Positions 22,335-63,896 of a DNA stretch of 64,000 nucleotides are shown piece after piece. The DNA comes from Eledone cirrhosa (Eukaryota). The number at the start of each line of letters is the position of its first letter. Position 1 is the first letter of the stretch. The DNA lies in assembly GCA_964016885.1 (NCBI GenBank), contig OZ024745.1:51398001-51462000 (forward strand), given 5' to 3'. The notes beneath the pieces are model-generated. The model was not told where the DNA came from, did not search any database, and worked only from the letters and a program-made list of their open reading frames with translations. A program made the position numbers and the translations under genes.

Positions 22335-22514
22335 GTTATTCCGCGTTGAATCAGCGGTAACCATAGTAAGTAAGGTACTCAATACATTGCAGAGTATAAA
22401 AGTTTTAATATAGATGAGATTCTGTTTCATTCTTTAGAAATCATCAGAGATTCCTGATGATTTCTAAAGAATGAAACAGTTCTAGGTCTGTAGAATCTCA
22501 TCTATATTAAAACT
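22335..22514 (+). mobile_element. Fold-back HHR element in (TA)n (family A, copy 1)
   Basis: About 65-nt leader plus inverted arms around a 6-nt spacer (22448-22453); the left arm has an internal deletion. Homologous to 63703-63896. Confidence 0.85.
22447..22499 (+). ncRNA. Type I hammerhead ribozyme
   Basis: gagauuc CUGAUGA u-uuc-uaaa-gaa-u GAAA cag-uucuaggu-cug UA gaaucuc: 7-bp stem I, GUA triplet. Confidence 0.85.
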
Positions 22515-23283
22515 ATATATATATATAATCCATAAATACCTCTGTGTCTGTAAGTACTTGTTACAACATTACAGTTAATTCTTATTTGTGTATACACTCA
22601 CCCACATACAGAAACACACACACACACTCACTCACTCTCACACACACAACACACACGCACACAGAACATTGCCAATGATTCTTGCACATTTTATGGAGTA
22701 AAGTAGACACTCACACATTCCCAACGGCCAGTATAAAGTAAAGGTAAACTCAATTGACGAATGTGTTTATAATGACGGCCTGAACCTTCCCATATATATA
22801 TATATATATATATATATATATATATATATATATATATATATATATATATATTAAATTCATAGGGATATATGTATATATTTAGACATAGTCACAGATACAT
22901 ATATGAGTTTGGCTACCTTCAACGGTGTGGCTCAATGAAGAATTAATTAAGCAAATAATTATTAATCAGAGCTATATATAAAATTGCAAGGTTGAAGAAC
23001 TATTAGATAAAATATATACAGTCTTTCCTCTCCATAGTCCGTAGAAATCAACCACATAAATAATCATTTAAAACGAGGCTATAAGTTTAAAATGTAACTA
23101 TGAAGAAATAATAGACAAATGATACAGACTATCTTCCGCGAGAGACAGCCAGATAAAATCTATCTAGTCATTCCTTTTAACTTGTAGAAAAACGACTAGA
23201 CAAATTATCAACCAAAGTTAGAGTTAGGTCTAAAATAGAAGTTGGAAGAAAAAATGCATATAAACTTTACCAACATTCCTCTA

Positions 23284-23369
23284 GACTCGACTGCCGGCAG
23301 TTTCGTTCCTTTTTAGCAGATATTTCCGATCCTGGGTTTATCCACGAGGCTTGAAACTTATCAAGAGAC
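23284..23369 (-). ncRNA. Hammerhead ribozyme with U3-A8 variant core
   Basis: gucuc UUGAUAA guuuc...ggaac GAAA cugccggcag (perfect palindrome) UC gaguc. Confidence 0.68.
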
Positions 23370-23821
23370 ACCTTATGTCTGGACTAAAATTTCTACCGTG
23401 ATCCCGCTAGAAATGAATTTAAAAATGGCTAAGAATTATCATGTGGTTGATTTCTAAGGATTAGGGAGAGGAAAGACTGTATATATTTTATCTAATAGTT
23501 CTTCAACTATGCAATTTTATATATAGCTCTGATTAATAATTATTTGCTTAATTAATTCTTCATTGAGCCACACCGTGAAAGGTAGCCACACTCATATATG
23601 TATCTGTGACTATGTCTAAATATATACATATATCCCTATGAATTTAATATATACTCCCATAAGGTAGAGTAGCAGTTTAGGCAATATATGGCTGCGCATT
23701 CTAGCAACCAGCCTACTCGCCGCCTGGCAACCATCTACCTCGACCACTAGCCACATGATAATCCTTAGCTATTTTTAAATTCATTTCTGGCGGGGATCAC
23801 AGTAGAAATATTAGTCCAGAC

Positions 23822-23906
23822 GTCTCTTGATAAGTTCCAAGCCTCGTGGATAAACCCAGGATCAGAATATCCGCTAAAATGGAACGAAACTGCCGACAGT
23901 CGACAC
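23822..23906 (+). ncRNA. Hammerhead ribozyme with U3-A8 variant core
   Basis: gucuc UUGAUAA guucca...uggaac GAAA cug-ccga-cag UC gacac. Confidence 0.68.
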
Positions 23907-24616
23907 TAGAGGAATTTTGGGTAAAGTTTATATGCATATAACTTTACCAAAAGTTCCATTTTTTCTTCTAACTTCTATTTTAGACCTAACTCCGTTTAGT
24001 TGATTATTTGTCTAGTCATTTTCTACAAGTTAAAAGGAATGACTAGATAGATTTTATCTGGCTGTCCCTCGCGGAAGATAGGAGGTGATCATTTGTCTAT
24101 TATTTCTTCACGGTTACATTTTAAACTTATAGCCTCGTTTAAATGATTATTTATGTGGTTGATTTCTACGGACTAGGGAGAGAAAGACTGTATATATTTC
24201 ATCCAATAGTTCTTCAAACTTGCAATTATATATATATATATATATATATATATATAAATCAAAAATGGCGAGGTGTGTTTAAGTATAATAAATGAAGAAT
24301 TAGAAATATAAGTTAGGAATATCCGTCATCAGTTGTCTACTAGCCATCATAGGTATCTTTTCGCATCACAGACAAGTCTTTTTTTTCTATACCTCTAGTA
24401 GGGGGATAAAAGATACAATATCTAAAAGATACAATAACTTAAAGATTTGGTTGGAGAAAGTTAGTAATATATATATATATTTATATTATATATTAATATA
24501 TTATATATATCTTATATATAGTATAGAATCTATCTTACTAATAGTATATATATATATATATATATATATATATATATATTATATATATAATATATATATA
24601 TATATATATATCTATA

Positions 24617-61237: not shown

Positions 61238-61700
61238 CTAGGGCAGGTAAAATTCCCGAGATCGATTGACAAGTTCTCTCCAGCGGTCTCTGTCCCTCAT
61301 CATCGCTGACATGTTCTGCGTCTCCAAGAGACCAGCGTCTATCCTTAAAGCATCAACGTATGTTAACCTCGATCTTCCTCTTGCAGTGTGTCCATGCAGG
61401 GTTTTCCACAGGAGCACTGAGTGTAGTGTCAACTCTGAATGTTGGTGAGCATGTCCAGCTAACCTCAGTCTCCTCTGTGCTACTTTTGAGCTGGTACAGC
61501 TCTGAGGTCTTCATCCTCAGTGTATACTGATTAATGTTCAGAGCCATTCTCAGTATTCTCGTGTAGCACCAACCCACCATCTAAGTGAGTTTCTTGGTCA
61601 GTGACCAAGTCTCAGACCTGTACAGCAGCACAGACTCGACTGCAGCAACGAAGAGACGGATCTTCAGGTCCCCACGAAGGTCCGACTTCCACACCGATAT
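61238..61700 (-). mobile_element. RTE/RTEX-like LINE 3' remnant
   Basis: VESVLLY.SETW, CYTRILRMALNI, VLLW...G...RGR.RLTYVD, M.DRDRWR. Confidence 0.7.
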
Positions 61701-63585
61701 CAAAATATATAATTTAAATATACTAATACAATTAATTATTTGACTGCAATGCGAATGTATTATTAATTAACGAAAGTGAACAATGTTAATAATTACATTA
61801 AAAAGCAAATCATGATATACTTAAATATATTTTTATAGAAGAATTATAATATTTACCTGTAATTCGAAGTTAATCTTATGAAGACAGCCACACACACAGA
61901 CACACACAGACACACACAGACACACACACACACACACACACACACACACACACACACACACACACACACACACACACACACACACACACACACACACACA
62001 CACACACACACACACACACATACATACATATATATATATATATATATATATATATATATATATATATATATATATATATACAAATATATCTAATTTAATG
62101 ATTCAAGATAGAAATCTTTATAATGATAAAGGTATTTATATTGGTGATATTTTATTATCCATTCTATCAATTAAATTGCTTTTACCGAAATTCTACTCAT
62201 AATCGTAAATAACCTCTGTACGTTCAATGCAAATTGCATATGTATAAGGCAGTTTATATCTATAACTATCTATAAGCTTTTGTTGAGTAGTAATTGCTGT
62301 CTTGGGTATAAATAAAATAGAACTTTACGCAAAAATGTCATATATAACTACTAGTATTCATGTTCTTATTACCATAATCTAATTCCGTATGCGTTTAAAT
62401 TTTTATTTACTTTTATTTATATTTCCAAAATCAAAATGCTTTATCGTGATGTTAATATTTATTACAGCTCAATACGATTTTTTTAGGTGATTCGTATCAT
62501 AAATTATATTTTAACGATCTATTATTTTAATTTTACAGGATTTTATAATTTATGTCAAAACTGTATATTAGACAATAAACTGTGAAATTAATGATTTAGA
62601 TTATGGAGAGGAAGGCGCGCTGAATTGGAAAGCGCCGACGTGATATATTTGAGAATAATAGAGTATGAAATGTAAAGATTGAGAGAAAGGGAAGACGAGA
62701 AGCTATCAGCATCATTAATTAATTTAATTGTTTACGGAATAATGCTTATAGTATTTATTTAATCTTTTATTTTAGTTTGACACGAGATATAGTAAAATCA
62801 ATACTATAGTAGTATTAATCATTTAGTGCTCAGCTAAATCATATAATGTCATCAACATTTTCAGTGATAATAATCATGGCTCACGATCGGGATGTCTAGC
62901 TAAATATTCATCTAAACTTTTCTATGAAGGGCATTTTTTAACATGCTATATATCTGGTATGACCAGAATATAAAATAAAGATATTTCTCATATTTCGTAT
63001 ATTTTATATCTTTCAGAAAGCAATGTTTCATTGCAAATTGTTTTGTAAGAATTACTCAAAAGAGTTCATGAGAAATAACAATTCCTACGCAGTTGGAATC
63101 AACAACGTCGATTTTAACTACTAACCCCCCCCCCCCCCCCCCCAAAAAAAAAACCAAAAAAAAAAAAAACCAAAAAAAAACCAAAAAAAAACAAACAAAC
63201 AAACCAAAAAAGAAAACATTTCCGTGTCAAGTATTTCTAAAAGTAGGATTTATGAATGTTTATCTTCAGATATTCTGCTTCACTATGTGACGACTATTTC
63301 TTCAACTTTCTATTAAGCTATGTACAATTGTCTGCAACTGTATCTATCGTTCATCCTTTCCATCAGAATAAAAGAGACCTGTCTAACTAGTTGTTTTGTG
63401 CATACAAATCTATCTATCTATATGTCTGTCTGTCTCTCTCTCTCTCTTTCTCTCTGTATATATATATATATATATATATATATATATATATATATATATA
63501 TATATATATATGCAGAGAGAGAGAGAGAGAGAGAGAGAGAGAGAGAGAGACGCACACACACACACATGTATATCCATATATATAT

Positions 63586-63672
63586 AACGAAGGAATTGTG
63601 GTAAGGAACCTGATGGACCATAACGCACCAGAGTACTCAATACTTAGGGTAGTAGAGTGGGTAATAGTTCCT
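63586..63672 (-). mobile_element. Tail fragment of family B element in (TA)n
   Basis: Reverse complement of 8269-8352 and 8056-8136. Confidence 0.75.
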
Positions 63673-63702
63673 ATATATATATATATATATATATATATAT
63701 AC

Positions 63703-63896
63703 GTTATTCCGGGTTGAATCGGAGGTAACCACAGTAAGTAAGGTACTCAATACATAGCAGAGTATAAAAGTTTTAATATAGATGAGATTCTACAGGACTA
63801 GAACTGTTTCATTCATTAGAAATCATCAGCGATTCCTGATGATTTCTAATGAATGAAACAGTTCTAGTCCTGTAGAATCTCATCTATATTAAAACT
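63703..63896 (+). mobile_element. Fold-back HHR element in (TA)n (family A, copy 2)
   Basis: Perfect 61-bp arms at 63769-63829 and 63836-63896 with a 6-nt spacer; same leader as 22335. Confidence 0.88.
63831..63879 (+). ncRNA. Type I hammerhead ribozyme
   Basis: gauuc CUGAUGA uuucuaaugaau GAAA cag-uucuaguc-cug UA gaauc. Confidence 0.82.

What the first reader, a model, noticed from the sequence alone, without database searches (positions are those of the whole stretch)
22335..63896. Family A hairpin: same fold-back point at two loci, arms regenerated per copy
Seen: both copies (22335-22514 and 63703-63896) invert at the same spot, leaving only a 6-nt stem I strand (agattc / cgattc) between TCATCAG and CTGATGA. 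Both arms at 22.4 kb carry loop taaa, while both arms at 63.8 kb carry taat. Inferred: the inverted arm is templated from its partner at each insertion (snap-back priming or template switch), analogous to LTR identity, rather than inherited as two independently drifting arms.
Basis: partly seen in the sequence, partly recalled or inferred. Interest (0 to 1): 0.7.

Follow-up and report, generated by a model that had tools for sequence, protein, structure and literature searches.

The report
Penelope stubs copied to RNA cap
These two DNA hairpins are among thousands of short, dead, back-to-back stubs of a Penelope-type jumping gene, and they likely form when the element's RNA is copied from both sides of a DNA break until both copies run off the RNA's predicted capped start, which would explain the long-puzzling inverted ends of these elements.

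Summary
Each arm is a type I hammerhead ribozyme motif from the start of a Hydra-clade Penelope-like retrotransposon; an intact 758-codon RT + GIY-YIG frame follows it at L093. The genome holds at least 2,692 such hairpins, and only 31 have mismatched loops (about 1,200 expected if arms paired at random), so the arms share a template at insertion. The fold-back point is a hot spot, not a fixed point: 56 different spacers in 100 junctions. One arm is not copied from the other: each often carries element bases the partner lacks, and some pairs do not overlap at all. The hot spot lies 30 nt after a conserved TATA box, and a G absent from the element precedes it (2,068 versus 468 A+T), the known mark of a reverse-transcribed cap. 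Likely mechanism: two RT reactions from the two target ends start at two sites about 70 nt apart, run off the capped 5' end of uncut RNA, and are end-joined. The inverted-copy layout is published; this explanation was not found in print. No RNA data confirm the start site. The scan reached this reading before on other DNA of this genome (e1-10353012).

The parts
22335..22447 (-). Copy 1 long arm: hammerhead core to end of tail; 14-nt private deletion of stem III and the cut site at about 22422/22423
22335..22400 (-). Copy 1 tail (unpaired part; equals the 5' UTR between hammerhead and ORF in L093)
22448..22514 (+). Copy 1 short arm; starts at predicted +1 (A 22448), preceded by G 22447 shared with the long arm; type I hammerhead 22448-22498, predicted cut 22492/22493
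63703..63829 (-). Copy 2 long arm: hammerhead core (63829 downward) to end of tail
63703..63768 (-). Copy 2 tail, with two predicted bulged hairpins of the same shape
   Evidence: folded on the homologous stretch of L093
63830..63896 (+). Copy 2 short arm; 5' end G-C-GATTC (C in place of the element's A at +1); type I hammerhead 63830-63880, predicted cut 63874/63875
22246..22334 (.). (TA)n target microsatellite left of copy 1 (a shorter TA run follows at 22515)
63672..63701 (.). (TA)n target microsatellite left of copy 2
63896..63930 (.). (TA)n target microsatellite right of copy 2

Best explanation
Each hairpin is a minimal insertion of a Hydra-clade Penelope-like retrotransposon into a (TA)n repeat, likely made by two reverse-transcription reactions, one from each end of the cut target, that start at two fixed sites about 70 nt apart near the 5' end of the element RNA and likely run off its predicted capped start before being end-joined head to head. 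Shown: family identity, one long plus one short arm, arm concordance, the junction hot spot with per-copy variation, the extra G, and the TATA box 30 nt upstream. Inferred: that the hot spot is the Pol II start site, that the G copies the cap, that the template is RNA not cut by the hammerhead, that both arms read one RNA molecule (rather than two from the same source locus), and that the joint is sealed by microhomology-type end joining with short snap-back fills. Longer copies would come from read-through transcripts that begin further upstream.
For: (1) L093 has the same hammerhead and tail directly before a 758-codon open frame with YRDDG and GIY-YIG motifs. (2) 98 of 100 position-ordered junctions have one long arm and one short arm. 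(3) Loop concordance is 908 + 1,753 versus 31 mixed. (4) The 5' GATTC is kept by both arms in 35, long only in 33, short only in 25, other in 7 of 100; non-overlapping arm pairs exist. (5) 54 of 116 arms end in a 12-nt window around the predicted +1, and the rest are scattered over hundreds of bases. (6) TATAAAT lies 36 nt before the core (30 before +1) in most read-through copies and is kept in diverged sister families whose intervening sequence differs. (7) The base before AGATTC is G 2,068 times versus A+T 468; G is also there where a lone arm meets (TA)n or host DNA (loci chosen for the G). In junctions that keep both ends, G is at -1 in 33 of 54 arms, 11 of them with a wrong +1 base. The sister family shows G at -1 in 44 of 100 arms. 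(8) Only 91 junctions lie near the hammerhead cut site and they are scattered. (9) In vitro, a Penelope protein cuts and extends both strands, starts at two internal sites that bound the tail, and uses uncut RNA (PMC11167929). An extra G marks the cap at full-length L1 5' junctions (PMC11702581).
Against: No RNA evidence for the start site or cap. The G could partly come from a terminal-transferase preference, from the partner's CAG, or from pairing with the stem I 3' strand GAATCTC. Two of 20 G-selected loci (L338, L340) are such stem I joints, and in the sister family C was commoner where stem I predicts it (11 of 12 non-read-through arms) than where it does not (21 of 37). Concordance cannot separate one RNA from two RNAs of one active source. 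The arm sample needed an intact core in at least one arm, so ends inside the hammerhead are under-counted. The hammerhead fold is not the minimum-energy fold (z about 0). The in vitro work is on a Poseidon-clade element, not Hydra.
Confidence: 0.72

Rival explanations
1. One reading: one cDNA snaps back or switches template at the stem I strand and copies itself to make the whole inverted arm.
For: Arms agree within a copy. Common spacers such as GAATCT followed by CTGATGA fit a 1-bp snap-back with a 6-nt loop, and some spacers contain short templated pieces of the core. Two loci join through the stem I complement.
Against: The long arm has a tail the short arm lacks, and the short arm alone keeps the 5' bases in 25 of 100. 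Both arms carry their own, often different, terminal dinucleotide (GG/GA 3 times, GA/GT once). Non-overlapping arms exist. Arms 6-8 kb apart are equally concordant. The short arm ends at fixed sites in (TA)n, which self-copying does not explain.
Confidence: 0.08
2. The hairpin is a fixed non-autonomous element (MITE-like or retrozyme-like master) that moves as a unit.
For: The best BLAST hits share the overall layout and outer ends.
Against: 56 spacers in 100 junctions. The same spacer recurs on different subfamily haplotypes, so junctions are not inherited. The same two outer ends flank arms of every length up to kilobases.
Confidence: 0.04
3. Twin reverse transcription is right, but the stop is set by an RNA structure or processing event at stem I and the G is a non-templated or stem I-templated base, not a cap.
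For: The stop coincides exactly with the 5' end of stem I. G at -1 would extend stem I by one pair in this family (GAATCTC). No transcript data.
Against: RT would already have unwound stem I on reaching its 5' end (inference). The TATA box sits at the canonical distance. In the sister family, where stem I predicts A or T (56 arms), C was seen 21 times and the predicted base 8 times. G occurs after a wrong +1 base.
Confidence: 0.13
4. Arms began different and were homogenised later by hairpin repair or gene conversion, or the palindromes are assembly artefacts.
For: Near-perfect palindromes are prone to both (general knowledge). A few rare variants are shared by both arms (L004, L015, L021).
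Against: In 93 junctions only 1 singleton variant is shared. Arm-specific differences are 27 and 36 in 3,404 sites after dropping one misaligned locus (L167), about the tail's 1.2% rate, so arms drift apart after insertion. Contigs of a public run cross the hairpin centre and show varied joints (possibly the same sample).
Confidence: 0.03

Closest known systems
Hydra clade of C-terminal-EN Penelope-like elements (Craig et al. 2021, PMC8557442; seen: passages, section 11, rows of supplement File S1)
   Same: RT + C-terminal GIY-YIG, DKT motif, CxCX5C linker, CxxC and CxH around E/N, hammerhead in the pLTR, (TA)n target, inverted 5'-truncated copy and a tail at one end.
   Different: RWR instead of RWK. 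L093 is about 6 kb because of a 3-kb microsatellite-rich 3' region (Hydra usually under 3 kb). The tail is about 66 nt, not 30-40. The paper leaves the origin of the inverted copy open and, in the passages seen, describes no hot spot at the start site or extra G.
PAc Poseidon element in vitro (Frangieh et al. 2024, PMC11167929; seen: parts 1-2 of 4 of the text)
   Same: Two internal RT start sites at the pLTR-ORF junction bound the tail; both target strands are cut and extended; predicted dimer; uncut RNA is the template.
   Different: Different clade. That study saw no strand difference in start site, whereas here 98 of 100 insertions pair one long with one short arm. It did not explain inverted insertions or 5' junctions.
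L1 twin priming and cap-derived G (PMC11702581; seen: passages)
   Same: Both target ends prime RT, the inverted products are end-joined, and an extra G marks the cap.
   Different: In L1 the two pieces cover adjacent, mostly non-overlapping parts of the RNA and the second start is set by microhomology. Here both copies usually cover the same stretch from two fixed starts to the same 5' end.
Animal non-LTR retrozymes (bioRxiv 10.64898/2026.07.22.740005; seen: listing and 3 passages)
   Same: Short hammerhead-bearing sequences derived from PLE ends.
   Different: Retrozymes are tandem arrays that amplify on their own; these are dispersed head-to-head stubs with a new junction at each locus.

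Membership tests
Penelope-like element (canonical, C-terminal EN) | Single ORF with PLE-type RT followed by GIY-YIG endonuclease | tested here: met
   L093 frame of 758 codons with YRDDG and VYKC...YIG motifs. Pfam GIY-YIG hit is weak (E 0.019, below cut-off) and there is no Pfam RT hit, so the RT call rests on motifs.
Penelope-like element (canonical, C-terminal EN) | pLTR with hammerhead at both ends | tested here: met
   Same core at L093 7278 and 1312, minus strand.
Penelope-like element (canonical, C-terminal EN) | Inverted 5'-truncated copy and one-sided tail | tested here: met
   98 of 100 junctions; layout as in PMC8557442.
Hydra clade | RWK, DKT, CxCX5C linker, CxxC/CxH around E and N, (TA)n target | tested here: met
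   RWR (variant), DKT, CNCLNKEAC, CDLC and CMH read from P0001 against section 11; (TA)n flanks.
Hydra clade | Length under about 3 kb | tested here: not met
   L093 spans about 6 kb because of a microsatellite-rich 3' region; the paper says 'generally short', so this is not treated as exclusive.
Hydra clade | Placement in the Hydra clade on an RT tree | not tested
   Reference proteins were not fetched.
Type I hammerhead ribozyme | CUGANGA and GAAA core, UH cut site, three stems with covariation | tested here: met
   Motif present. 96.6% of cells paired, two stem I pairs with compensatory change among 9 distinct related rows. Not the minimum-energy fold; no Rfam hammerhead hit at E<=1 in the window.
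Type I hammerhead ribozyme | Self-cleavage | not testable with these tools
   Needs an in vitro assay.
Fixed hairpin element (MITE-like) | Inherited fixed internal junction | tested here: not met

The most novel reading that the evidence does not exclude
Hydra-type Penelope elements insert by a built-in two-ended mechanism: a dimeric enzyme copies a single capped, uncut RNA from two programmed start sites, one per DNA strand. Transcripts from the element's own promoter, whose first base is the first base of the hammerhead, can yield only 190-bp hairpin stubs. Thousands of these stubs therefore record the start site and cap in DNA, and full-length copies need read-through RNA, which explains why these elements live in tandems.
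Probability: 0.5. Interest if true: 0.62.

Novelty: new member of a known kind. Interest (0 to 1): 0.45.

Why it matters
How Penelope-like elements make their inverted ends and one-sided tail is named as an open question in PMC8557442. These stubs give thousands of natural read-outs of the reaction and turn the question into direct tests: a predicted start site to the base, two predicted RT start sites, a predicted cap-dependent G, and one long plus one short arm per insertion. The hairpins themselves are dead debris of a known class of element.

Tried and rejected
RNA evidence: no RNA holder listed. Contigs of two runs of unknown kind showed no starts or ends, which contigs cannot show. Rfam gave only microsatellite-driven miRNA matches below threshold and no hammerhead. 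Energy folding did not recover the hammerhead. The PDB search with P0001 found nothing useful. A hot spot at the hammerhead cut site was rejected (91 scattered junctions). Segmental duplication was rejected. BLAST-top loci were not used for counts because they are biased towards the query's junction. The mapping was swamped by microsatellite hits and was redone. The loop-identity count in the old sister family (24 of 50) was not used: those copies are diverged and indels shift the window. The 31 mixed-loop loci were inspected (28 of 30 fetched were parsed); several are multi-unit insertions, and they did not clearly show two-template events. The tree has low support and is used only to show that arms do not group by side. 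Literature searches for a published cap or start-site explanation found none; subscription papers are not searched, and only File S1 of the Craig et al. supplements was held as text, so its sequence and hammerhead files may bear on whether this family is already described.

Full report
Observation. Both hairpins are present as described: spacer AGATTC at 22448-22453 and CGATTC at 63830-63835, loops TAAA/TAAA and TAAT/TAAT. Each sits in a (TA)n run. Each has a long arm on the minus strand with a 66-nt unpaired tail and a short arm on the plus strand. The two loci share no unique flank. The arms at 22.4 kb differ by a 14-nt deletion in the long arm and a 2-nt change in the short arm, each found only there among the loci fetched up.

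What the arms are. Each arm reads as a type I hammerhead: stem I AGATTC/GAATCT, core CTGATGA, a 3-bp stem II, GAAA, stem III and a GTA cut site (the hammerhead consensus is recalled). Across 9 distinct rows from this and sister families, 96.6% of cells pair and two stem I pairs change on both sides (related rows, so modest evidence). Rfam did not report it and it is not the minimum-energy fold. The exact 26-nt core occurs 8,661 + 6,049 times in G000, control 0. Locus L093 holds a full-length copy: hammerhead, tail, a 758-codon open frame with YRDDG and GIY-YIG motifs, a 3-kb microsatellite-rich stretch, and a second pLTR and hammerhead. Pfam support is weak (GIY-YIG E 0.019). The protein has the Hydra-clade marks listed in section 11 of PMC8557442: RWR for RWK, DKT, CxCX5C, CxxC and CxH. 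The window's hairpins equal the first 140 nt of this element's predicted transcript, read outward in both directions.

Are arms made per insertion? Genome-wide exact counts for hairpins with spacers up to 30 nt: TAAT/TAAT 908, TAAA/TAAA 1,753, mixed 31. Random pairing at these allele frequencies would give about 1,213 mixed (my arithmetic). In 93 of 100 position-ordered junctions (7 dropped for unusual ends), a second subfamily site agreed in 10 of 10, but only 1 singleton variant was shared. Arm-specific differences were 58 and 41 columns, or 27 and 36 in 3,404 sites after dropping one misaligned locus (L167), close to the 1.2% rate in the single-copy tail. So the arms are identical at birth and drift afterwards. 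Longer arms, some 6-8 kb apart, group by locus or subfamily and not by side (low tree support).

Is the breakpoint fixed? No. The first 50 listed junctions of each concordant class gave 56 different spacers of 2-29 nt, and 98 of 100 pair one long with one short arm. The same spacer recurs on different haplotypes, so there is no fixed master. But it is a strong hot spot: in loci around 98 of the first 100 core matches, 54 of 116 arms end within a 12-nt window at the foot of stem I, 3 end further in, 35 are scattered over 9-428 nt upstream and 24 run beyond (the sample needs an intact core in one arm). Junctions near the hammerhead cut site number only 91 and are scattered (50 listed).

Is one arm copied from the other? 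Not as a rule. The 5' GATTC is kept by both arms in 35, by the long arm only in 33, by the short arm only in 25, other in 7. A short arm with bases the long arm lacks cannot be its copy, and the long arm's tail cannot come from the short arm. At L344, L347 and L351 a complete short arm is joined to a piece of tail only, with no overlap. Some spacers hold short templated pieces of the core, which fits brief snap-back or re-priming at the joint, as in polymerase-theta end joining (recalled), and L338 and L340 join through the stem I complement.

Why this spot? In read-through copies TATAAAT begins 36 nt before the core, that is 30 nt before the A of AGATTC, which lies in CCAGATT, a match to the initiator YYANWYY (consensus and spacing recalled). 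Sister families keep the TATA box at 36-39 nt while the sequence between changes. The element's own base at -1 is C (8,637 matches). Among other bases G has 2,068 matches and A+T 468. In junctions that keep both ends with at least 2 nt between, -1 is G in 33, C in 13, A in 8 and T in 0 of 54 arms; 11 of the 33 have a wrong +1 base, as the window's G-C-GATTC does. Among 20 loci chosen for the G, several show it where a lone arm meets (TA)n or host DNA. In a sister family with a different stem I (50 of 62 junctions), -1 is G in 44 of 100 arms and the template base in 35. Where stem I snap-back predicts A or T (56 arms), the cap-type base appears 21 times and the predicted base 8 times; where it predicts the same base, 11 of 12 non-read-through arms have it, so stem I pairing may add to the effect. 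An extra G is the published mark of the cap at full-length L1 junctions (PMC11702581, passages). No RNA run was listed to test the start site.

Mechanism. Shown: family, geometry, concordance, hot spot, extra G, TATA spacing. Inferred: the endonuclease cuts (TA)n; each target end primes RT at one of two sites about 70 nt apart at the pLTR-ORF junction; both reactions cross the uncut hammerhead and run off the capped 5' end; the two cDNA ends are trimmed by a few bases and joined. This fits the in vitro Poseidon data (both strands cut and extended, two internal starts bounding the tail, predicted dimer, uncut RNA used; PMC11167929, parts 1-2 of 4). The tail between the two ends folds into two bulged hairpins of the same shape (z -2.0 and -1.6); the short end lies at the 5' foot of the first and the long end at the 3' foot of the second. 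Their role was not tested. Whether one or two RNA molecules serve as template is open.

Comparison and novelty. The inverted 5'-truncated copy, the one-sided tail, (TA)n targeting and a start site inside the pLTR are published for Penelope-like elements, and their origin is called unresolved (PMC8557442, passages). The run-off-at-cap explanation was not found in six searches, which miss subscription papers. File S1 of that paper lists a family Hydra-1_Obim; identity with this family was not tested. I noted the cap idea; an earlier report of this scan on other DNA of this genome reached the same reading (e1-10353012), which is not independent evidence. Verdict: a real feature, a new member of a known kind, with a testable mechanistic footprint. 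Interest 0.45.

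Noticed in passing
window 7588-7922: An unrelated head-to-head pair of hammerhead motifs with a CTGAAGA core (7692 minus, 7818 plus), 126 nt apart: same layout, different family.
   Followed up: partly
window 4597-4889 and 5078-5366: Tandem 290-nt repeat (94.5% identical), each with a minus-strand hammerhead motif (CTGACGA core at 4759 and 5240); retrozyme-like.
   Followed up: no
window 7932-8350 and 63587-63667: Another short fold-back family with an 80-nt tail that shares the GAGTAC motif with this element's tail; one tail abuts the (TA)n left of copy 2.
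   Followed up: no
window 722-4371 and 34718-38293: Two LINE copies 75% identical; the first has a 1,031-codon frame with AP endonuclease and RT domains.
   Followed up: partly
window 5607-5684, 16323-16574, 18907-19031, 22845-24236, 38877-39953: Further palindromes and inverted repeat pairs in or beside microsatellites, probably other fold-back insertions.
   Followed up: no
G000, pattern: Strand excess of about 3,000 matches (5,821 versus 2,816; also 8,661 versus 6,049) suggests a large tandem array of this hammerhead unit somewhere in the assembly.
   Followed up: no
L093:1760-4880: The element's 3' region is a 3-kb degenerate TA/TG microsatellite that other copies also carry.
   Followed up: no
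L097:4198-6564: An ORF-bearing arm that starts almost at the hammerhead cut site, a rare case.
   Followed up: partly
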